The notes: generated from the letters alone by a model not told the origin. A stretch of 30,979 nt of DNA from a virus (IMGVR_UViG_644736365_000004), one strand, 5' to 3'; counted from the stretch's first letter, positions 580 through 8,688 are shown. Translations and numbers: made by a program.

Positions 580-1161
580 ATGAATATACTTACTCAGTAT
601 GGGAAAGAAATATTTGCACTTTTTGTTCCTATTTTTACCTTATTTATCAATAAGATTTTTAAAAATGGAGCGAAAATTTGCTATGGAGAGCTTCACCAAT
701 ATAGCTATTTAATTAACGAGCCGTTACGTAATGCTGAAGGTGAAATTGTTAAGGCAAAACAGGTGGTGCATACAAAATCCTATGCCTTTAAAAACGAAGG
801 AAAAGAACCTGCTACTAATGTGGAGATAATTTTCAATTACCCACCTATGTACGTAAACATTTGGCCCTCAAGGCATTACACAATTAAGAGTGATGCCGAA
901 GAAAGGCAGGTTATGTTGTTTGATTATCTTGCACCACATGAATCTATACGATGTGAGGTTATGTCGATAAATACTGACTTACCCGCGTTGCTCACAGTGA
1001 GATGTAAAGAAGGAATTGCACGAAATATAACCTTGGTTCCTCAAAAACTTCACCATCCGGCCTTTATTCATTTTTGTCAACTATTGCTGTTTCTGGGGTC
1101 TGTAACTTTAATCTACATTGTTGTTGTTTTCCTCCAGTGGTTGTTGCTGAAAACAGGTTAG
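580..1161 (+). CDS. hypothetical membrane protein, cargo gene between int remnant and int
   Basis: 193-aa ORF in a visibly AT-rich segment, convergent with int. Hydrophobic N-terminal segment (FALFVPIFTLFINKIF) and C-terminal TM helix (FCQLLLFLGSVTLIYIVVVFLQWLLL) flank a ~140-aa soluble region. No recognisable family. Confidence 0.5.
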   Translation: MNILTQYGKEIFALFVPIFTLFINKIFKNGAKICYGELHQYSYLINEPLRNAEGEIVKAKQVVHTKSYAFKNEGKEPATNVEIIFNYPPMYVNIWPSRHYTIKSDAEERQVMLFDYLAPHESIRCEVMSINTDLPALLTVRCKEGIARNITLVPQKLHHPAFIHFCQLLLFLGSVTLIYIVVVFLQWLLLKTG

Positions 1162-1181: not shown

Positions 1182-2237
1182 TTATGTTTTGGTACTCGAC
1201 AGTATTTCTAAGCTGCTGCGGCATTTTAAGGGATTAAGCCGCACAGCGTCTTCAAGGTGGCTTGGGGCGAAATGCGCATACCGCATTGTCATAGTGATAT
1301 CGGCATGGCCGAGGATTTTTTGGAGAACCAGAATGTTGCCGCCGTTCATCATAAAGTGGCTGGCAAATGTATGGCGTAGTACGTGGGTAAGCTGACCTGC
1401 TGGTAGTTCAATGCCAGCACGTTCCAGAGCGGAACGGAAAGCGTTATAGCAGGGCTTTGGAAACAGAGCGCCTTTTGTTTCGGGTAGTTCAGCCAGCAGT
1501 TCATCATCTAACGGAATGGTACGGTTCCTTTTCCCTTTTGTTTTTATGAAGGTGACTTTTCCGCCAGCTATCTGGGAACTTTTGAGTGTTGCCGCTTCAT
1601 TCCATCTTGCGCCAGTCGCCAGACAGATTTTTACGACTAACTCTAAATAACTTACTTTACTGCGTTTGCATTCCAGCAAAAGCCGATCAATTTCCTCAGC
1701 AGTGAGAAATGCCATTTCAGTTTCATCTGTACGGTACTGTCTGACGTTCTCCAGTGGGTTAGGGGCTGACCACTCACCGATCCGTTTCAGTTCATTGAAC
1801 ATAGCCAGAAAATATGCGTGTTCAAGGTTCATTGTTTTAGGTGAAACCTTAGAAACACGGTTAGTACGGGCATAATGCCCTTCAAGCCTTTTTGCACGGT
1901 ATGCTGTAAACAGCTGGGCATTAAACTCAGTGGCCAGCGGAAAACCCATACACTCCGCCGCCCAGGTCATTGCGTCTTTACGCTTTTTACCATTGCGTAG
2001 GGCAACGCCGTGGCGCTCGTACCACATTGTAATCAGGTCGATTAATGTTCGTTTATCTTTCCCTTCACCTAACCACGGCGCACTATCTACCTTTTGAAGC
2101 GTGTGATTCTCAAATGCCAGGGCTTCTCCCTTAGTGGCAAATTTTTTACGTATACGCTTCCCGTTTTTACCATTGCTGCGGTTGACGGTGTAGAAGTCGG
2201 CGATCCATTCGCCAGTAGGAAGTTTACGAACACTCAT
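1182..2237 (-). CDS. int: tyrosine site-specific integrase (P2/186-type)
   Basis: 351-aa ORF. C-terminal catalytic signature ATGARWNE ... HVLRHTFASH ... MTMRYAHF (R, H-x-x-R, Y). Sits next to the repressor at the prophage edge. Confidence 0.9.
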   Translation of the reverse strand: MSVRKLPTGEWIADFYTVNRSNGKNGKRIRKKFATKGEALAFENHTLQKVDSAPWLGEGKDKRTLIDLITMWYERHGVALRNGKKRKDAMTWAAECMGFPLATEFNAQLFTAYRAKRLEGHYARTNRVSKVSPKTMNLEHAYFLAMFNELKRIGEWSAPNPLENVRQYRTDETEMAFLTAEEIDRLLLECKRSKVSYLELVVKICLATGARWNEAATLKSSQIAGGKVTFIKTKGKRNRTIPLDDELLAELPETKGALFPKPCYNAFRSALERAGIELPAGQLTHVLRHTFASHFMMNGGNILVLQKILGHADITMTMRYAHFAPSHLEDAVRLNPLKCRSSLEILSSTKT

Positions 2238-2238
2238 T

Positions 2239-2820
2239 TTATTTAATCGTCAGAACTACGCGGCCAATGATTTTTATGTCGTCGATGCCACAATCAAAAG
2301 CCATGCCCACGCCACTAACTCTTACTTTGCGTACTGGAATTCTTGTCAGTGTACGAATGCTAATTTTTCCTTCTACTTCAACCAGCCAATCGTCGTCATA
2401 AACTTCAGAGTAAGACTGGTCAACGATGTACTGTACAAGACCATCCAAAACGCATAACGGCTGTTGTGGTAGTGATTTACCTGGTAGGAAAGTGACTTTA
2501 TCAAGCATAAGAGTGCCTGAGTCGTAAAGCTGGCCATCAACGATCTTGCTGCGTGGAATTCTGAGAATGTCTAATTCTTCATCATTAAATTTTGGGCCGT
2601 GACCAGTAGCTAGCCATTCCAGGTTAGCGCCTGTTTCAGCAACACATTTAACGACGATATCAGCTGGGAAAACTCCACGTTTATAGCGTGATGATAGAGA
2701 ACTGGCAGCCATGTCCAGATGTTCTGCTAGCTGTAACTTCTGCGTAAATCCGTAAGCCTCGATCACCCGATCCAGAATCGGGGTGCTGTCAACGTTCAGG
2801 TCAATTTTGAATGTGCTCAT
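2239..2820 (-). CDS. CI-type prophage repressor (phage 186 cI-like by size and position)
   Basis: ORF immediately upstream of int on the same strand, divergent from the Apl/CII-like operon. ATG at 2818-2820 (MSTFKIDLN...) gives 193 aa; the track start at 2862 is GTG. Start choice is uncertain. Confidence 0.55.
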   Translation of the reverse strand: MSTFKIDLNVDSTPILDRVIEAYGFTQKLQLAEHLDMAASSLSSRYKRGVFPADIVVKCVAETGANLEWLATGHGPKFNDEELDILRIPRSKIVDGQLYDSGTLMLDKVTFLPGKSLPQQPLCVLDGLVQYIVDQSYSEVYDDDWLVEVEGKISIRTLTRIPVRKVRVSGVGMAFDCGIDDIKIIGRVVLTIK

Positions 2821-2834
2821 AACGAATCCATAAA

Positions 2835-2884
2835 TCTCGATTCGAGAAATTGTGATTGACACTTCTCGAAACGCGAATTAATCT
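2835..2884 (+). promoter_or_regulatory. lysis-lysogeny switch region: operator-like palindrome and rightward promoter
   Basis: Perfect 13-bp palindrome TCTCGATTCGAGA (2835-2847). TTGACA (2856-2861), 17-nt spacer, TAATCT (2879-2884). A TCTCGAA half-site repeats inside the spacer (2864-2870). Lies between the divergent repressor and Apl-like genes. Confidence 0.35.
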
Positions 2885-2955
2885 GGCTCCACATTTCGAA
2901 TGCAGCCTTATATAACCCTGTATTGCCGTACAGGTTAACTTGTGGAGTTTGCCTT

Positions 2956-3177
2956 ATGCGTCCAAACATTACAATCATCATCCCAGAACCATACCTGCCT
3001 CTAGACGAGTATTGCCGCCGTACTGGTACTAACAAAGAAACCGCTAGGAACCTGATCGAATACGGAAAATTACCTATCAAGCCGAAGGGTAAGCAAAAGA
3101 AAGGCCTGGTCGAAGTCAACATGGCCGCGCTTACCATTCAGGCGTTAAGCGAATGTGATATTTCGCTTAACGCGTAA
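2956..3177 (+). CDS. Apl/Cox-like small DNA-binding regulator or excisionase
   Basis: 73-aa ORF from the ATG at 2956, with GGAG 8 nt upstream. Divergent from the repressor, first gene of the rightward early operon. Basic patch GKLPIKPKGKQKKG is typical of Cox/Apl-type proteins. Confidence 0.5.
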   Translation: MRPNITIIIPEPYLPLDEYCRRTGTNKETARNLIEYGKLPIKPKGKQKKGLVEVNMAALTIQALSECDISLNA

Positions 3178-3207
3178 TCCATCCTACGGATTAGGGAGAG
3201 GCAAACA

Positions 3208-3711
3208 ATGTTTGATTACCAGACCTCTAAACATGCTCACTTTGATGCGGCTTGCCGAGCATTTGCAATTGAACACAATCTGGAAGATGTAGCCGCTGCC
3301 GTTGGTATGAGGCCGCAGATTCTGCGTAACAAATTGAATCCAGCACAGCCGCACCGTTTAACCTGTGACGAGCTTTTAGCTATTACGGATTACACCGAAG
3401 ATGCACGTTTACTGGATGGAATGCTGGGGCAGATAAACTGCCTCCCATCCGTACCGGTGAACAATGCCACAGAAGGCAACATGCAGTTGTGTGCACTAAG
3501 TGCCACAGCCTGTGTGGGTGCAATTGCTGGGGAAGCCGTATCAACTGGTCATATGACCGCCGCCCGCCGTACACAAATTCTGGATCGCGCTCGCGATGCC
3601 ATCCGCAGCTTATCCGTGCTGGCTTATACCGTTGAAAGCCGTATCCAGTCTGCGCCCGTTTTGGCCGCAGCGGTGGATCTGGTGACGGCTAATGCGACCG
3701 GCTTGATGTGA
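3208..3711 (+). CDS. CII-like regulatory protein (phage 186 CII family)
   Basis: 167-aa ORF with strong RBS GGGAGAGG. N-terminus MFDYQTSKHAHFDAACRAF...LRNKLNPAQPH resembles 186 CII as I recall it. Position after Apl matches the 186 early operon. Confidence 0.6.
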   Translation: MFDYQTSKHAHFDAACRAFAIEHNLEDVAAAVGMRPQILRNKLNPAQPHRLTCDELLAITDYTEDARLLDGMLGQINCLPSVPVNNATEGNMQLCALSATACVGAIAGEAVSTGHMTAARRTQILDRARDAIRSLSVLAYTVESRIQSAPVLAAAVDLVTANATGLM

Positions 3712-3720
3712 GGGAGCACC

Positions 3721-3893
3721 ATGAAAGCGTTCGTCACTTATCTGAAAAATGAATCACCGGCTAAGCAGCTGCCAAGCGGTTCCACTGGCTGGATCGAACT
3801 GCCAACTGGTCAGCGCTGGAATCCAAGTCATATGTACAAATTCAATGGTCAGCAACCGCGCCGTCCGTGGTGGCGTCGCCTGATGGGGCTATA
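3721..3893 (+). CDS. hypothetical small early protein
   Basis: 57-aa ORF (MKAFVTYLKNESPAKQL...), not in the ORF track because it is under 60 aa. GGGAG 5 nt upstream of the ATG, directly after the CII-like stop. Confidence 0.3.
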
Positions 3894-3902
3894 GGGGGGG
3901 TT

Positions 3903-4331
3903 ATGGCAATTAGTCAGGAACAGCAACAGCGCGGACTGGAACAGCTTAAAAAGATTCGCCGCAAATACTTCAATACCAGTAGTGAGGCTGCTGACTGGTG
4001 GGACAAATTAACACCTGAATGGCGCGGGGTAGTTCTCCATGCCGCCGCTGTTAATTCTGGCTTGAGTGTATTCAAAGCCCACTTAAGCAAATGCTGCTGG
4101 CGGGAGCTGTTTGAGCGTCTGGATTACCGGGCAATGATTCAACTGCGTTGCGGCATTTCACGAGCGCGTCTGACGATGAACGGATTCGGGTCATTGCGTG
4201 ACAGTGATTTTTCTAAAAGTACCGTGAACCGTCCGATAAAGCGGGTTTATCCAATCAATAACAATCGGGGGCCGCAGATGATTATCGCGCCTCACATCGT
4301 CCATAAGTTGCAACAACAAGGGAATCTCTGA
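3903..4331 (+). CDS. hypothetical early protein
   Basis: 142-aa ORF from the ATG at 3903, preceded by a G-rich Shine-Dalgarno. Stop overlaps the next start (TGATG). Confidence 0.4.
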   Translation: MAISQEQQQRGLEQLKKIRRKYFNTSSEAADWWDKLTPEWRGVVLHAAAVNSGLSVFKAHLSKCCWRELFERLDYRAMIQLRCGISRARLTMNGFGSLRDSDFSKSTVNRPIKRVYPINNNRGPQMIIAPHIVHKLQQQGNL

Positions 4332-4732
4332 TGGCCATTATTTCCGTTGAAGGTAAATCGTTAGGGGCTGAATTGGCCGCGTGGGGAGTTCCTCACAATT
4401 ACGCTGTGGCTTTTGCTGAGAAAAGTACCAGTAAAAATGGCCGTATCGCTTTGCATCCTTTCTTCTTCAATGACACCGAACACATGACTAACCCGCGTCA
4501 TTGGCTGGCGATAAATGCCGCTTTCTGGTGCTGCGTGTACCGCGAGGCAGAGAGCAAAGAAGCGCAAATTGAAGCAATTGCCGGAATCCGCGCAATTTTC
4601 TATACGGCCGGGGCGTTGGGTGTTGGCGAGATTAAAGCACTGATCCAGGAGTGGTGGCGGACAACGTACGAGCTGCACCTTATTCCAGCACCGAATCATT
4701 CCGCAGTCACTGTACAACCCGCTTTTCACTAA
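4331..4732 (+). CDS. hypothetical early protein
   Basis: 133-aa ORF translationally coupled to the upstream ORF. No recognisable motif. Confidence 0.4.
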   Translation: MAIISVEGKSLGAELAAWGVPHNYAVAFAEKSTSKNGRIALHPFFFNDTEHMTNPRHWLAINAAFWCCVYREAESKEAQIEAIAGIRAIFYTAGALGVGEIKALIQEWWRTTYELHLIPAPNHSAVTVQPAFH

Positions 4733-4799
4733 TTAACAACCTGAATTTTTTGGCCACAGCTTAGGTGGCCGGGGATTCTTTTGCCTTAAGGAAATCAAA

Positions 4800-5033
4800 A
4801 TGCACATGACACGTCAGGATTTACCCGCAACAAAATCAGGCACTGACCTGCTGGCTATGCTCACCAAAGCCACGCAGGAAGGTAAAGCAGCTGCTGCTGA
4901 TCTGTGTTCCACCCGCCTGGATAAGCTGGCCACCCATGCCGTCAATGAAGGTTTAAGCGCAACAGAAATCGTTGAGTTAATCCGCGAAGAAGCCGCAGCG
5001 ATTTGCAGTAAAGGCGGTGCAGCATGGCAGTAA
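4800..5033 (+). CDS. hypothetical small Ala-rich protein
   Basis: 77-aa ORF with RBS AAGGAAA. Its stop overlaps the dam start (ATGGCAGTAA). Confidence 0.35.
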   Translation: MHMTRQDLPATKSGTDLLAMLTKATQEGKAAAADLCSTRLDKLATHAVNEGLSATEIVELIREEAAAICSKGGAAWQ

Positions 5034-5893
5034 AAACTCCGCTTAAGTGGGTGGGCAGTAAAGCCCGCCTTATGCCGCAGTTGCTTCCCCATCTGCCGGA
5101 GGGCAAGCGCCTTATAGAACCTTTTGCTGGTTCCTGTGCAGTCATGATGAATACGGATTATGACGAGTACCTGATCGCTGATGTGAATCCTGATCTGGTT
5201 AATCTGTATAAGACTATGGCCTATCAGACTGATGCATTGCTCATTGAGCTGGAAGCTTTATTTTCTGCCGGTTCATTAGGCGATGAAGAAAGTCGCGCTG
5301 TTTTCTATTACGCGGTGCGTGATGCCTTCAACCAGTCCGGCAAATCCTTTGGTTCTGAATCTGTGGAAGCTGCTGCGCGTTTTCTTTATCTGAACCGTCA
5401 CTGCTTCAATGGCCTGTGCCGATACAATCGTCGTGGCCAGTTCAATGTTCCGTTTGGTAAGTACAAAAAAACCTACTTTCCTGCTGATGAAATCCGCGCT
5501 TTTGCAGAAAAAGCGAAACGTGCAACGTTCATTACTGCCCACTATTCAGAAACGCTTGATTTGGTAAGGGACGGGCATGACGTTGTTTATTGTGATCCGC
5601 CTTACCTGACTGATACCGACAATTTCACCGCGTACCATGAGCGCGGTTTTTCTCACATGGATCAGGGGCGGCTGGCGCGTAAGCTGCGCCGCCTGGCTGA
5701 GCGTGGGATTAAGGTTGTCGCGTCAAACAGCGATCTGGAAATGGTGCATTACCTGTATGCAGGATTTGACGCTGTGCGGGTAAATGCCCCACGCAGTGTG
5801 GGTGCAGCAGCTGCAAGCCAGAAAGTTGCCGCAGAGCTGATTCTTAAGTCACCTGCAAACCCCGCGATCGGCGTTAGGGCGGTGATGGCATGA
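5024..5893 (+). CDS. dam: DNA adenine (N6) methyltransferase, Dam family
   Basis: 289-aa ORF with AdoMet-binding motif EPFAGS near the N-terminus and catalytic DPPY (VYCDPPYL). N-terminus MAVKTPLKWVGSKARL is typical of Dam-type enzymes. Confidence 0.85.
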   Translation: MAVKTPLKWVGSKARLMPQLLPHLPEGKRLIEPFAGSCAVMMNTDYDEYLIADVNPDLVNLYKTMAYQTDALLIELEALFSAGSLGDEESRAVFYYAVRDAFNQSGKSFGSESVEAAARFLYLNRHCFNGLCRYNRRGQFNVPFGKYKKTYFPADEIRAFAEKAKRATFITAHYSETLDLVRDGHDVVYCDPPYLTDTDNFTAYHERGFSHMDQGRLARKLRRLAERGIKVVASNSDLEMVHYLYAGFDAVRVNAPRSVGAAAASQKVAAELILKSPANPAIGVRAVMA

Positions 5894-6102
5894 TGACGGA
5901 AATTATCACCGGCTTTTATGCCTTGTTTGCCTGTATCACTTTCGCCTTTCTCTTATGGGGCGAATGCCAGGACGAATTTGATCATGATGCTGAGGATTTA
6001 GGGTTAATCACACTGAGCGCGGTTTTCTGGCTACCACTGGTAGCGGCCGTACTTGTGGCCTTTCTGATTGATTTCTGGCGCAAGTGGGTTAACCGTGGTT
6101 GA
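5890..6102 (+). CDS. hypothetical small membrane protein (two predicted TM helices)
   Basis: 70-aa ORF. Start overlaps the dam stop (ATGATGA); its stop lies 1 nt before the replication gene ATG. Two hydrophobic stretches separated by an acidic loop. Confidence 0.4.
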   Translation: MMTEIITGFYALFACITFAFLLWGECQDEFDHDAEDLGLITLSAVFWLPLVAAVLVAFLIDFWRKWVNRG

Positions 6103-6103
6103 T

Positions 6104-8119
6104 ATGCTGGAGCCTGGCCAACACCATGCCGTCAATGCCTGGCGGCGTGAAACCTTTGCGCCTGGTACCCCGTCAGATGCGACGATCACCGAACGCCGCC
6201 TGTGGGCTGTTAACCCACAGGATTATGAATGGCGTTCCCAGTACCTGCATGAGATACCCGACTGGTTAGCCGGGTATTTCGGCAACCGTTACGAAAAGCT
6301 GCTGGCTGGTCGTGACGGGCGTCGCCGTGCCAATACATTCTTGCGCAAAACTATCGGCGAGAATGTATTGCCACGTCTGCGCAAAGTGGCTGCACGTTAC
6401 AAGCTGGCTGCTGATGCACTTGATCTTCCTTTCGGTAAGTCGCTGGAGCGACTGCCGTCACTTGACCGCCCGGACCTCAAAAAATTGGCTGGCCAGATAT
6501 CTGGCTGGATCTCACAGTCACTTTATGACTTCACCGATCAGTTTGTGGGCAGCACTGACGGTGCCGCAGAGCTGCGCCGCCGTACGCTGGAGTCTTACCG
6601 CCATTTATGCACGTGTTCCCTGATGCTGAACAATCAACCGCCGTACTGGGCAGAACATGAAGCTAATGGCGGACAACTGGAAACACGTAAGACTGAATCC
6701 GGGATTCTCCGCATGATGGCACCTGAATGGTGGTATCTGCGTCTTAAGCGGGCGCGGGATATGCAGCGTGAGCATATGGCCATTGCCGTGGGGCAGGTGC
6801 AAAAAGCAGCCAGTGCTTATGTGTCCCGTAAAACCCTGGGTGAATGGATAGACCAGAAAAAGCGGAACCTTGAGTTCTTTAAAAAGTTTGATCTGCTGAA
6901 TGATGAAGGGCTGCGTATTGCACTGGACAGCATGGTGCACCGCAGCGTTGCTAATCCGGCGATCCGTCGCTGTGAGCTAATGGTAAGAATGAGAGGATTT
7001 GAAGATATGGCCAATGAAGAAGGGCTGGCCGGTGAGTTTTACACCATCACCGCGCCATCGCGGTTCCATGCGGTACACAGCAAAGGGGGCTTTGTTTCAC
7101 AGTGGGATGGCTGCACCCCACAGGACACCCAGCGCTATTTATGTGGTGTATGGGCGAAAGCCCGCGCTGCTATTTCCCGTGCAGGTATCCATGTTTTTGG
7201 TTTTCGTGTGGTAGAGCCTCACCACGATGGGACACCGCACTGGCATATGCTGCTTTTTATGCGTCCTGGTGACGTGGATACCGTGCGCGATATTCTTTGC
7301 TATCACGCCAGAATTACCGACTCCGAAGAACTGCAAACGCCAAACGCGCTAAAGGCACGTTTTCATGTTGAAGCCATCGATCCCGCTAAAGGTTCGGCTA
7401 CGGGTTATATCGCCAAATACATATCCAAAAACATTGATGGATTTGCGCTGGATGGTGAGCAGGACGATGAAACAGGGGAAAGTCTGCGGGATATGGCCAA
7501 ATCCGTTTCTGCATGGGCTTCACGCTGGCGCATTCGCCAGTTTCAGCAGATTGGTGGTGCGCCGGTTACAGTCTGGCGTGAGCTGCGCCGGTTACGTGAT
7601 CAGGTACTGACTGACCGCAGAATGGATGCGGTTCTGGCTGCTGCGGATGTTGGGGACTGGGCGGCATATACCCAGGCACAGGGTGGCGCACTGGTTGCCC
7701 GCCGCGATCTGGTTGTTCGTCTGGCTTATGAAATCACTGAGCAGGGTAATGAATACGCAGAGGACGTGCAGCGCGTTCAGGGTGTCTATTCTCCATTGGT
7801 TCCAGATTCGGCGGTATGTACGCGCCTGGTGAAGTGGCAGAAGGTTGCGAAGTTGGCCGAAGCGCCAGCGGAGGCGGGTTTTTCTGGCGGCAACGCCGCC
7901 CCTTGGAGTTCTGTCAATAACTGTACGGAGGGTGGAACCCGCAGACGGTTAAAACTGGAATTGCGCAGCCGGGGTTTTGATGGTTCTGACGATGAAATAG
8001 CCATTCTCATGCGGGGCAGTGGTTTGAGATTTGGCCAGGTGGCATTGATTTACCGTAATGGCCGGTTGCAAGAGACACGAAGCGAGCCAACGCACGAGCT
8101 GTGGCCGGGGTGGTTGTAG
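6104..8119 (+). CDS. rolling-circle replication initiator (P2 gpA / 186 A family)
   Basis: About 671 aa from the ATG at 6104 (track start 6068 is TTG). Metal-binding HxH motif (PHWHMLLF) and tyrosine motif GYIAKYISKN are characteristic of gpA-type initiators. Size and position match. Confidence 0.8.
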   Translation: MLEPGQHHAVNAWRRETFAPGTPSDATITERRLWAVNPQDYEWRSQYLHEIPDWLAGYFGNRYEKLLAGRDGRRRANTFLRKTIGENVLPRLRKVAARYKLAADALDLPFGKSLERLPSLDRPDLKKLAGQISGWISQSLYDFTDQFVGSTDGAAELRRRTLESYRHLCTCSLMLNNQPPYWAEHEANGGQLETRKTESGILRMMAPEWWYLRLKRARDMQREHMAIAVGQVQKAASAYVSRKTLGEWIDQKKRNLEFFKKFDLLNDEGLRIALDSMVHRSVANPAIRRCELMVRMRGFEDMANEEGLAGEFYTITAPSRFHAVHSKGGFVSQWDGCTPQDTQRYLCGVWAKARAAISRAGIHVFGFRVVEPHHDGTPHWHMLLFMRPGDVDTVRDILCYHARITDSEELQTPNALKARFHVEAIDPAKGSATGYIAKYISKNIDGFALDGEQDDETGESLRDMAKSVSAWASRWRIRQFQQIGGAPVTVWRELRRLRDQVLTDRRMDAVLAAADVGDWAAYTQAQGGALVARRDLVVRLAYEITEQGNEYAEDVQRVQGVYSPLVPDSAVCTRLVKWQKVAKLAEAPAEAGFSGGNAAPWSSVNNCTEGGTRRRLKLELRSRGFDGSDDEIAILMRGSGLRFGQVALIYRNGRLQETRSEPTHELWPGWL

Positions 8120-8196
8120 CAGTATAAATCTGTGTAACACGTTCATTTGTCAGTAGATGGCAGGAAAATACATTTCACAATTTGTGCTTTACGGTG

Positions 8197-8216
8197 TACT
8201 GTATGTATATACAGTT
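8197..8216 (+). promoter_or_regulatory. LexA (SOS) box
   Basis: TACTGTATGTATATACAGTT fits the CTGT-N8-ACAG consensus, 23 bp upstream of the 8239 ORF. Confidence 0.6.
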
Positions 8217-8238
8217 ATATATTGTTTGTGGGGGCTAA

Positions 8239-8445
8239 ATGGATCTTTTGGAAGCGTCGGCACAGCTGGAGCGCATTGAGTTATTGGCCAAAATTGCCCA
8301 TGTGTACGAAAGTAACCAGAGAGAAAAAACAATCGCTTTGGCCTGGATTGGTGAGATTGCTGGAGAAATGCGGGAGATGGTCAGAACAGAAGCTAAAAAC
8401 CCCCAGGAAGGGGGCTTATCAGGCGGCGGGAGTCGCTTTCAGTAG
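8239..8445 (+). CDS. putative SOS-inducible antirepressor (Tum-like)
   Basis: 68-aa ORF with G-rich RBS, directly downstream of the LexA box. Position after the replication gene matches tum of phage 186. No direct sequence recognition. Confidence 0.4.
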   Translation: MDLLEASAQLERIELLAKIAHVYESNQREKTIALAWIGEIAGEMREMVRTEAKNPQEGGLSGGGSRFQ

Positions 8446-8688
8446 GTCTAATGCCATTTGGCGCTGATCGGGTGAAAGTGCATTCAGTATTTTCTGCACC
8501 ATCGCATCACCCGTTTTCGCGCTGGGGCTGAGAGTGTGGGAGAACGTCAGATTCATCACAAACGTATGGCCACACTCCACATCTGAACAGGCGCAGTAAA
8601 TATCCGCAATCTGCCGGTGCTTCCGGTTTGTTTTACGAATAACAGCCTTTGAGCCGCATTCCGGGCATTCGATTTTCAGAACTCGCAT
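8419..8688 (-). CDS. Ogr/Delta-family zinc-finger late transcription activator
   Basis: 89 aa from the ATG at 8686-8688 (MRVLKIECPECG...). Cys spacing C-x2-C-x22-C-x4-C matches Ogr/Delta. The track ORF extends to 8742 but those upstream codons overlap the portal stop. Confidence 0.6.
   Translation of the reverse strand: MRVLKIECPECGSKAVIRKTNRKHRQIADIYCACSDVECGHTFVMNLTFSHTLSPSAKTGDAMVQKILNALSPDQRQMALDLLKATPAA

What the first reader, a model, noticed from the sequence alone, without database searches (positions are those of the whole stretch)
3721..5033. Block of four translationally coupled early ORFs of unknown function upstream of dam
Between the CII-like regulator and the methyltransferase lie four small ORFs (57, 142, 133 and 77 aa) with good ribosome-binding sites and TGATG or ATG/TAA overlaps. 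A hairpin (GGCCAC-N7-GTGGCC, 4752-4770) followed by a T-rich stretch separates the first three from the fourth. This is where 186-type phages carry host-takeover genes (fil, dhr and others), and I recognise none of these proteins, so novel host-modulating or anti-defence functions could reside here.
Basis: partly seen in the sequence, partly recalled or inferred. Interest (0 to 1): 0.4.

Follow-up and report, generated by a model that had tools for sequence, protein, structure and literature searches.

The report
Conserved early genes of a 186-type prophage
The four small genes are real and conserved, but they are the fixed backbone of a P2/186-family prophage rather than a variable anti-defence slot: a Fil cell-division inhibitor, a gene pair whose first member is distantly related to the phage P2 helicase-loading protein B, a terminator, and a DUF2732 gene.

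Summary
All four ORFs are under purifying selection (dN/dS 0.02-0.22).

The window is an E. coli prophage of the 186 type (Peduoviridae).
- ORF1 is a Fil homologue (Pfam PF10893 above its cut-off; hhalign E 2e-18 to 186 Fil).
- ORF4 is DUF2732, the counterpart of 186 orf79 and P2 orf80.
- The hairpin matches the annotated 186 terminator tR1 and the P2 terminator in position and 3' sequence.
- ORF2 and ORF3 are an inseparable, tightly coupled pair in all 167 related loci examined.

That pair fills the slot that holds dhr in 186 and gene B in P2. The three fillings never co-occurred in 327 loci. ORF2 is a distant, single-module relative of P2 gpB, a DnaB helicase loader (hhalign E 2e-4 to 6e-4, plus PHROG bridging). 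ORF3 is an orphan family with a confident helical model and no informative match.

The block does not vary. The variable slot lies downstream, between DUF2732 and gene A. My best guess is that ORF2/ORF3 act on host DnaB for phage replication; this is inferred, not shown. Interest is modest.

The parts
3721..3894 (+). ORF1, 57 aa: Fil-family protein, a homologue of the phage 186 cell-division inhibitor Fil
   Evidence: Pfam PF10893 scores 37.1 bits against a cut-off of 25. It matches phrog_7623 (E 6e-27) and phrog_816 'cell division inhibitor' (E 1.5e-7). It is 32% identical to the N-terminus of 186 Fil. A profile of this lineage's Fil against 186 Fil gives hhalign probability 99%, E 2.2e-18 over 52 columns. 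RefSeq names it 'phage filamentation protein Fil family protein'. dN/dS is 0.03-0.22.
3903..4331 (+). ORF2, 142 aa: all-helical protein; residues ~27-100 form one copy of the ~55-aa module that is duplicated in P2 gpB; the C-terminal tail carries conserved DFS and AP motifs
   Evidence: It matches phrog_33841, of unknown function. The family is tiny: 38 representatives among 1.84 billion proteins, a few of them spurious repeat proteins. A broadened profile against the gpB profile gives hhalign E 3.1e-4, 5.8e-4 for the whole protein and 2e-4 for the N-half. An ORF2 HMM hits P2 gpB at E 4.9e-5 in two stretches, with 33 targets. PHROG bridging through phrog_14551 and phrog_5349 links the two families. 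It occupies the same position as P2 gene B. The AF2 model has pLDDT 68, with the core near 80.
4331..4732 (+). ORF3, 133 aa: orphan family, obligate neighbour of ORF2; its start overlaps the ORF2 stop (TGATG)
4747..4785 (+). Intrinsic-terminator-type hairpin (stem 4747-4775, core GGCCAC/GTGGCC 4752-4770, T-rich tail 4776-4785); counterpart of 186 tR1 and of the P2 terminator after gene B
   Evidence: It is the top-ranked terminator-like site in 2200-8600. 186 tR1 sits at the same place and shares ...GCCGGG(G/C)ATTCTTTTGCC. P2 has CGCAC/GTGCG followed by GGGGCTTCTTTTTGCC. A strict terminator search finds it in 96 of 149 loci; inspection of the intergenic sequences shows a comparable hairpin in most of the rest, with differing but complementary stems. 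Its energy alone is not exceptional. There is no Rfam match.
4800..5033 (+). ORF4, 77 aa: DUF2732 protein, counterpart of 186 orf79 and P2 orf80; its last 10 nt overlap the dam start
   Evidence: Pfam PF10809 scores 47.7 bits against a cut-off of 25. It matches phrog_128 at E 7e-22. It is 32% identical to 186 orf79. The 186 record annotates that gene as 'unknown function; not essential'. It occupies the same position after the terminator in P2, 186 and nearly all relatives.

Best explanation
The region is a fixed segment of the early lytic operon of a 186-type (cI/apl/cII) P2-like prophage of E. coli.

**What each part most likely does.**
- Transcription from the early promoter runs through apl and cII into ORF1.
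- ORF1 is a Fil homologue, which by analogy with 186 would block host cell division when expressed.
- Next come ORF2 and ORF3, made in fixed proportion through closely spaced or overlapping stop and start codons.
- ORF2 is a one-module relative of P2 protein B. P2 B binds host DnaB helicase and serves as the phage's helicase loader.
- I infer that ORF2, with ORF3 as its partner subunit, engages DnaB to support replication started by the A nickase. A likely side effect is drawing DnaB away from the host chromosome.
- This fits the slot, which in 186 holds the host-replication inhibitor Dhr and in P2 holds B.
- The hairpin after ORF3 is the tR1-type terminator. It attenuates transcription into the downstream part of the operon (DUF2732, dam, membrane protein, A) until it is read through.

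**What is shown.** Gene identities for ORF1 and ORF4, the conservation, the pairing of ORF2 and ORF3, the three-way exclusivity of the slot, and the terminator's homology.

**What is inferred.** DnaB binding, the ORF2-ORF3 complex, and any effect on the host.
For: **Anatomy and identities.**

**Slot correspondence.**
- P2: cox-orf78-B-terminator-DUF2732.
- 186: cII-fil-dhr-tR1-DUF2732.
- Window: cII-Fil-ORF2-ORF3-hairpin-DUF2732.

**Mutual exclusivity of the slot fillings.**
- 167 loci carry ORF2+ORF3 and none carries gpB or Dhr.
- 80 gpB loci carry no ORF2/3.
- 80 Dhr loci carry no ORF2/3 or gpB.

**ORF2-gpB homology.**
- hhalign gives E 3.1e-4 and 2e-4 to 5.8e-4, always over the same region (ORF2 27-100, gpB 30-91).
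- The ORF2 HMM hits both gpB repeats.
- The two halves of gpB are repeats of each other (E 6.5e-6).
- All 9 distant ORF2 relatives hit phrog_5349 (best 3.6e-10) and 8 of 9 hit phrog_14551. P2 gpB hits the same families at 1.7e-5 and 1.2e-11.
- A Yersinia phage record already labels its ORF2 homologue 'replication protein GpB'.

**P2 B as a helicase loader.** PMC12661323 lists it among helicase loaders, citing Odegrip et al. 2000.

**Core rather than accessory.** Minimal relatives have only apl-cII-Fil-ORF2-ORF3-DUF2732-A. Purifying selection acts on all four ORFs.
Against: **Weaknesses in the homology.**
- hhalign probabilities are only 29-46%.
- The narrow ORF2 profile gave E 0.45.
- Bit scores in HMM-sequence tests are 14-18.
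- ORF2 homologues carry no precomputed PF26815 hit, whereas gpB homologues do.
- ORF2 has one module where gpB has two.

**No structural support.**
- The ORF2 model found nothing in BFVD.
- No solved structure exists for either family.

**ORF3 gives no functional clue at all**.

**Other points.**
- From my own knowledge (Sivaprasad et al. 1990; Hooper and Egan 1981), 186 replicates with gene A alone and uses host DnaC, so a B-like function is not obligatory for this type of phage.
- ORF2 and ORF3 can recombine apart: against ESSI2_ev015, ORF3 is 95% identical and ORF2 only 79%. This argues against tight co-adaptation.
Confidence: 0.5

Rival explanations
1. ORF2 and ORF3 are host-takeover or anti-defence accessory proteins. 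They would be functional analogues of Dhr that arrest or reprogramme the host, or neutralise a defence system, and would play no part in phage replication itself.
For: They sit exactly where 186 has dhr, annotated 'inhibits host DNA replication'. They are small early proteins without enzyme motifs or database annotation. ORF3 has a helical, Trp-rich, protein-binding-type fold. A DnaB-binding protein could itself act as a host replication inhibitor, so this reading overlaps with the best explanation.
Against: The pair is invariant in 167 loci across many genera and down to about 25% identity. The truly variable genes lie between DUF2732 and A. Anti-defence genes are usually patchy. ORF2 has remote homology to the replication protein gpB. 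Neither protein resembles Dhr. No PADLOC hit was found, which is weak evidence because PADLOC models defence systems rather than anti-defence proteins.
Confidence: 0.25
2. ORF2/ORF3 regulate the operon itself. For example, they could promote read-through of the tR1-type terminator immediately downstream, or otherwise control the timing of DUF2732-dam-A expression.
For: The 186 record says the terminators in this region are anti-terminated during early lytic development. The pair always lies directly upstream of the conserved hairpin. The U-tract can pair with the ORF4 ribosome-binding site.
Against: The same terminator follows unrelated genes (dhr, B) in 186 and P2, so it does not need ORF2/3. 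No nucleic-acid-binding domain or motif was detected. The gpB similarity points to a protein-protein function.
Confidence: 0.1
3. The small ORFs and the hairpin are chance features of an intergenic or decaying prophage region.
For: The hairpin's folding energy is not better than shuffled sequence. An antisense ORF of 122 aa overlaps ORF3.
Against: dN/dS is 0.02-0.22 in the + frames. There are hundreds of homologues of constant length and order. Family HMM matches exceed the curated cut-offs. The hairpin is conserved, with changed but complementary stems.
Confidence: 0.01

Closest known systems
Phage 186 early lytic operon segment cII-fil-dhr-tR1-orf79 (NC_001317)
   Same: The order and spacing match. 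The window has cII (PF06892), a Fil homologue and a terminator with the shared 3' sequence GCCGGG(G/C)ATTCTTTTGCC. A DUF2732 gene follows, and further downstream variable genes and the A replicase.
   Different: The single 66-aa dhr gene is replaced by the unrelated pair ORF2+ORF3. Fil is shorter here (57 against 75 aa). There is no DksA-like orf80 after DUF2732. dam sits in place of orf80-orf84.
Phage P2 protein B (gpB, Pfam PF26815, phrog_235), the DnaB helicase loader
   Same: The genomic position is the same: after a ~56-aa first ORF and before the terminator and DUF2732. ORF2 residues ~27-100 align with gpB 30-91 and share an R-x-hydrophobic-H-A-A/G motif. The two families share PHROG matches.
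   Different: gpB is 166 aa with two copies of the module, whereas ORF2 has one copy plus an unrelated tail. Neither direct family HMMs nor PF26815 recover ORF2. ORF2 always comes with ORF3, which P2 lacks. DnaB binding is untested here.
Yersinia phage vB_YenM_324 gp06-gp09 (NC_070917) and Escherichia/Cronobacter ESSI-2-like phages (Quadragintavirus, Seongnamvirus)
   Same: They carry the same block, Fil-ORF2-ORF3-hairpin-DUF2732, upstream of A. ORF2 is 31-81% and ORF3 49-95% identical to the window's proteins.
   Different: These records call ORF2 either 'hypothetical' or 'replication protein GpB', without evidence. The accessory genes between DUF2732 and A differ: none in YenM_324, exonuclease plus DUF3850 plus dam in ev015.
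Lambda P and other phage-encoded helicase loaders or hijackers
   Same: This is only a functional analogy under the best explanation. These are small early phage proteins that capture host DnaB for the phage origin and thereby also harm host replication (PMC12661323).
   Different: No sequence or fold similarity was detected.

Membership tests
Phage_186_Fil (Pfam PF10893) | Match to the family HMM above the curated gathering score | tested here: met
   ORF1 scores 37.1 bits against a cut-off of 25, E 2.5e-9. A profile of the lineage against 186 Fil gives hhalign probability 99%, E 2.2e-18.
Phage_186_Fil (Pfam PF10893) | Position directly after cII in the early operon | tested here: met
   ORF1 starts 9 nt after the cII stop, as fil does in 186.
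Phage_186_Fil (Pfam PF10893) | Overexpression blocks cell division (filamentation) | not testable with these tools
   Only the 186 record's note is available. This needs expression in E. coli.
DUF2732 (Pfam PF10809; 186 orf79, P2 orf80) | Match to the family HMM above the gathering score, and position after the early terminator | tested here: met
   ORF4 scores 47.7 bits against a cut-off of 25. It is 32% identical to 186 orf79. The position is the same in P2, 186 and nearly all relatives.
P2 replication protein B (gpB; PF26815, phrog_235) | Direct match to the family model | tested here: not met
   ORF2 homologues carry no precomputed PF26815, whereas gpB homologues do. ORF2 does not hit phrog_235. 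The gpB HMM against ORF2-family ORFs scores only about 10-11 bits.
P2 replication protein B (gpB; PF26815, phrog_235) | Remote homology by profile-profile comparison | tested here: inconclusive
   hhalign gives E 3.1e-4 at probability 39% and E 2e-4 to 5.8e-4 at probability 29-46%. The narrow profile gives E 0.45. PHROG bridging is consistent with homology.
P2 replication protein B (gpB; PF26815, phrog_235) | Two-module architecture of ~166 aa | tested here: not met
   The N and C halves of gpB are repeats (E 6.5e-6). ORF2 contains a single module in 142 aa.
P2 replication protein B (gpB; PF26815, phrog_235) | Binds DnaB and is required for lagging-strand synthesis | not testable with these tools
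   Known for P2 only (PMC12661323 citing Odegrip 2000; P2 record note).
186 Dhr (phrog_6069) | Sequence similarity to Dhr | tested here: not met
   BLASTP finds no alignment or E 12. hhalign gives E 0.37-0.49.
Rho-independent terminator, 186 tR1 type | G+C-rich stem-loop followed by a T-run, between the upstream cassette and DUF2732 | tested here: met
   The stem has 11 pairs (5 G-C) with a 7-nt loop and a TTCTTTTG tail. It shares its 3' sequence with 186 tR1. It is conserved with variant stems.
Rho-independent terminator, 186 tR1 type | Terminates or attenuates transcription in vivo | not testable with these tools
   Needs Term-seq or a reporter assay. The thermodynamic z-score alone is unremarkable.
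Known anti-phage defence proteins (PADLOC) | Match to any PADLOC model | tested here: not met
   None of the four ORFs hits a model at E up to 1.

The most novel reading that the evidence does not exclude
ORF2 and ORF3 together form a two-subunit helicase loader or hijacker that has not been described. One gpB-type module (ORF2) would pair with an unrelated helical partner (ORF3), in place of the duplicated module of P2 gpB. This would give a large lineage of 186-type phages DnaC-independent replication. It would also deplete DnaB from the host, uniting the roles that P2 B and 186 Dhr play in the same genomic slot.
Probability: 0.2. Interest if true: 0.55.

Novelty: new member of a known kind. 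Interest (0 to 1): 0.28.

Why it matters
This finding mainly corrects the map. In this widespread group of enterobacterial prophages, the region after cII is conserved backbone. The place to look for cargo or anti-defence genes is further right, between DUF2732 and the replicase gene.

It also gives a concrete and cheap hypothesis for two 'hypothetical' families found in many genera of Enterobacterales (Escherichia, Salmonella, Klebsiella, Enterobacter and others). One genomic slot takes three mutually exclusive fillings: the P2 helicase loader B, the 186 host-replication inhibitor Dhr, or the ORF2+ORF3 pair. That suggests all three act on the same host target. If so, the pair would explain how 186-like phages that lack dhr deal with DnaB. 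It might also hint at what Dhr does, which is still unknown.

Tried and rejected
**ORF2 and ORF3 against curated libraries.**
- Pfam, NCBIfam and PADLOC scans found nothing.
- PDB sequence searches with profiles of ORF2, ORF3 and gpB gave only chance hits with E above 0.3.

**Fold searches.**
- ORF2 and ORF3 by Foldseek against BFVD gave nothing below E 0.4. BFVD did not return ORF3's own phage homologues either, so its silence on gpB is weak evidence.
- The afdb50 library was unavailable.

**Comparisons among phage proteins.**
- Direct BLASTP of ORF2 and ORF3 against Dhr and gpB gave nothing.
- ORF3 against gpB (whole and halves), ORF2 and every P2/186 early protein gave nothing. The idea that ORF3 is the missing second half of gpB is therefore not supported by sequence.
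- P2 orf78 as a Fil relative has only a 14-residue N-terminal resemblance (E 0.012) and is not claimed.

**RNA and hairpin.**
- RNAalifold on an ungapped alignment of the hairpins predicted no structure, because loop-length differences put the 5' arms out of register. Conservation was shown per sequence instead.
- The Rfam scan gave only chance hits.

**Literature and other hits.**
- Searches for 186 dhr/fil and for the Yersinia phage returned nothing usable, and Odegrip 2000 is not held.
- Three long repeat proteins in the representative search were flagged; the two inspected (P0320, P0337) are spurious repeat sequences.

Full report
**1. What is there**

The window's left part is a P2-family prophage. 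It is 99.5% identical over this region to one integrated next to mntS/opgE in E. coli SC477. Its closest named phages are the ESSI2-like Quadragintavirus group of Peduoviridae.

The gene order is as follows:
- int (1182-2237, minus strand)
- cI repressor (2239-2862, minus strand)
- apl/cox (2956-3177)
- cII (3208-3711; PF06892, E 1e-46)
- the four ORFs of the finding
- dam (5024-5893)
- a 70-aa membrane protein (5890-6102)
- the A replicase (to 8119)

The TGATG overlap between ORF2 and ORF3 and the 10-nt overlap between ORF4 and dam are real. The cII-ORF1 and ORF1-ORF2 junctions are gaps of 9 and 8 nt, each with a ribosome-binding site. ORF3 and ORF4 are separated by 67 nt that hold the hairpin.

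**2. The frames are genes**

Against five relatives at 50-99% protein identity, dN/dS is 0.02-0.22 for all four ORFs, similar to cII. ORF2 has about 100 and ORF3 about 90 clusters of homologues at 90% identity. All are in Enterobacterales and all are labelled hypothetical.

**3. ORF1 and ORF4 are known families**

ORF1 passes the Pfam gathering score for Phage_186_Fil. A profile of its lineage aligns to 186 Fil over 52 columns with E 2.2e-18. RefSeq already names it a Fil-family protein.

ORF4 passes the DUF2732 cut-off and is 32% identical to 186 orf79. The 186 record marks that gene as non-essential and of unknown function. P2 orf80 is the same family.

**4. The hairpin is the tR1-type terminator**

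In 186 the annotated terminator tR1 lies between dhr and orf79. Its sequence is CTTGGCG-TAAACC-CGCCGGGCATTCTTTTGCC. The window has TTTTTGGCCAC-AGCTTAG-GTGGCCGGGGATTCTTTTGCC. P2 has a putative terminator, CGCAC-TTAATT-GTGCGGGGCTTCTTTTTGCC, at the same place after gene B.

A strict search finds a terminator-like hairpin after ORF3 in 96 of 149 loci, and by inspection the intergenic sequences of most of the rest hold a comparable one. The 3' arm and tail are conserved. The 5' arms and loops differ, yet the stems stay complementary: GGCCATC/GGTGGCC, GGCTTTCC/GGATAGCC, GTGGTTAT/ATAGCCGC and others.

The folding energy by itself is not significant (z -0.84). A formal RNAalifold test failed for alignment reasons. 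The evidence is therefore comparative rather than thermodynamic.

**5. ORF2 and ORF3 are an obligate pair in a three-state slot**

I fetched four sets of loci:
- 80 viral loci through ORF3
- 71 viral loci through the most distant ORF2 relatives
- 16 genomic loci
- 80 loci each for P2 gpB and 186 Dhr

Nearly every ORF2/3 locus with enough flank reads cII-Fil-ORF2-ORF3-DUF2732-(variable)-A. In every one of them ORF2 and ORF3 are adjacent, and neither occurs with gpB or Dhr. The gpB loci and the Dhr loci carry neither ORF2 nor ORF3.

The ORF2-ORF3 junction is a 1-nt or 4-nt overlap in 80 loci. In the rest it is a gap of at most 17 nt (7-10 nt in about 65 of them), typically with a GGA-type site.

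What varies is the stretch between DUF2732 and A. It can hold nothing, dam, an exonuclease, DUF3850, DUF5405, PAPS reductase or the small membrane protein.

**6. ORF2 is a distant single-module relative of P2 gpB**

Pairwise BLAST and the narrow profile see nothing. An exhaustive HMM search found only 38 representatives in 1.84 billion proteins. These included a distant group at 25-30% identity. One member of that group is the Yersinia phage gene annotated 'replication protein GpB'.

With these sequences added, several tests converge:
- The ORF2 profile aligns to the gpB profile at E 3.1e-4.
- With locus-derived sequences it aligns at E 5.8e-4 to the whole protein and 2e-4 to the N-half. The region is always the same.
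- The gpB halves align to each other at E 6.5e-6, so gpB is a tandem duplication of a ~55-aa module.
- The ORF2 HMM hits both copies.
- All nine distant ORF2 relatives match phrog_5349 and eight match phrog_14551. P2 gpB matches the same two families.

Each link is modest: hhalign probabilities stay below 50% and bit scores are 14-18. The links agree with each other and with the synteny.

Structure gives no help. The ORF2 model is mediocre (pLDDT 68), BFVD returned nothing, and no structure of gpB exists.

**7. ORF3 remains an orphan**

Its invariant residues are mostly aromatic, with four Trp and a C-terminal His. This suits a binding protein rather than an enzyme, but that is only an impression.

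**8. Mechanism**

*Shown:* the identities, order, coupling, conservation and exclusivity.

*Established elsewhere:* P2 B is counted among the DnaB helicase loaders (PMC12661323). The 186 record notes that Fil blocks division on overexpression, that Dhr inhibits host replication, and that the terminators of this region are anti-terminated during early lytic development.

*Inferred:* ORF2, with ORF3, acts on DnaB for A-initiated replication. I put this at roughly 0.4-0.5. The takeover reading (about 0.25) overlaps with it, because a DnaB binder can also starve the host. A role in terminator read-through is possible but unsupported (about 0.1).

**9. Novelty and score**

Two of the four proteins and the hairpin are already-known elements. 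ORF2's link to gpB is hinted at in one database record. ORF3 is uncharacterised but ordinary in distribution.

The useful results are the corrected map and the three-state slot. I file the block as a new member of a known kind, with modest interest. One testable novel reading remains: a split, two-subunit loader.

Noticed in passing
window 5034-6103 and the same stretch in L007-L173: The truly variable part of the early operon lies between DUF2732 and gene A. Relatives carry nothing there, or combinations of dam, a 3'-5' exonuclease, DUF3850, DUF5405, PAPS reductase and a 70-aa membrane protein.
   Followed up: partly
window 5890-6102 (+): A 70-aa protein with two predicted hydrophobic segments overlaps the dam stop and ends at the start of A. 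It is present in only a subset of relatives and has no family match.
   Followed up: no
window 580-1161 (+): A 193-aa hypothetical protein with a hydrophobic C-terminus lies between the host mntS gene and the integrase gene, a typical place for prophage cargo. It has no PADLOC hit.
   Followed up: partly
window 4776-4793; L003 3905-3930: In the minimum-energy fold, the terminator's U-tract pairs with the ribosome-binding site of the DUF2732 gene (UUCUUU with AAGGAA). The same pairing appears in phage 186. It may simply reflect base composition.
   Followed up: no
L134 5323-5368, L142 5808-5853, L100 4949-4994 and similar: In a distant sub-lineage the hairpin is enclosed in an extra outer helix (GCACGA...TCGTGC) and lacks a T-run. 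There it may not act as a simple intrinsic terminator.
   Followed up: no
L006 1959-2459 (P2 gene B): P2 gpB is an internal tandem duplication. The N-half (31-86) aligns to the C-half with hhalign E 6.5e-6, probability 85%, sharing an R-x-T-hydrophobic-F-H-A motif.
   Followed up: yes
window 3903-4732 compared with L002 3704-4533 (ESSI2_ev015): There is a mosaic joint between the paired genes. ORF3 is 94.7% identical and ORF2 only 79.4%, with dS near 1 in both. Different ORF2 alleles evidently work with the same ORF3.
   Followed up: partly
L254-L333 compared with L007-L173: Nearly all Dhr-carrying phages have the DksA-like zinc-finger gene (186 orf80) right after DUF2732, and so does P2. None of the 167 ORF2/ORF3 loci has it.
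   Followed up: no
L006 1792-1962 (P2 orf78) compared with window 3721-3894: P2 orf78 occupies the Fil position and shares an N-terminal L-(L/K)-N-E-S-P stretch with ORF1. The similarity is only 14 residues long (E 0.012 to 0.013).
   Followed up: partly
window 4361-4729 (-): A 122-aa antisense ORF lies wholly inside ORF3. It was treated as mechanical, because ORF3's own (+) frame is under strong purifying selection.
   Followed up: no
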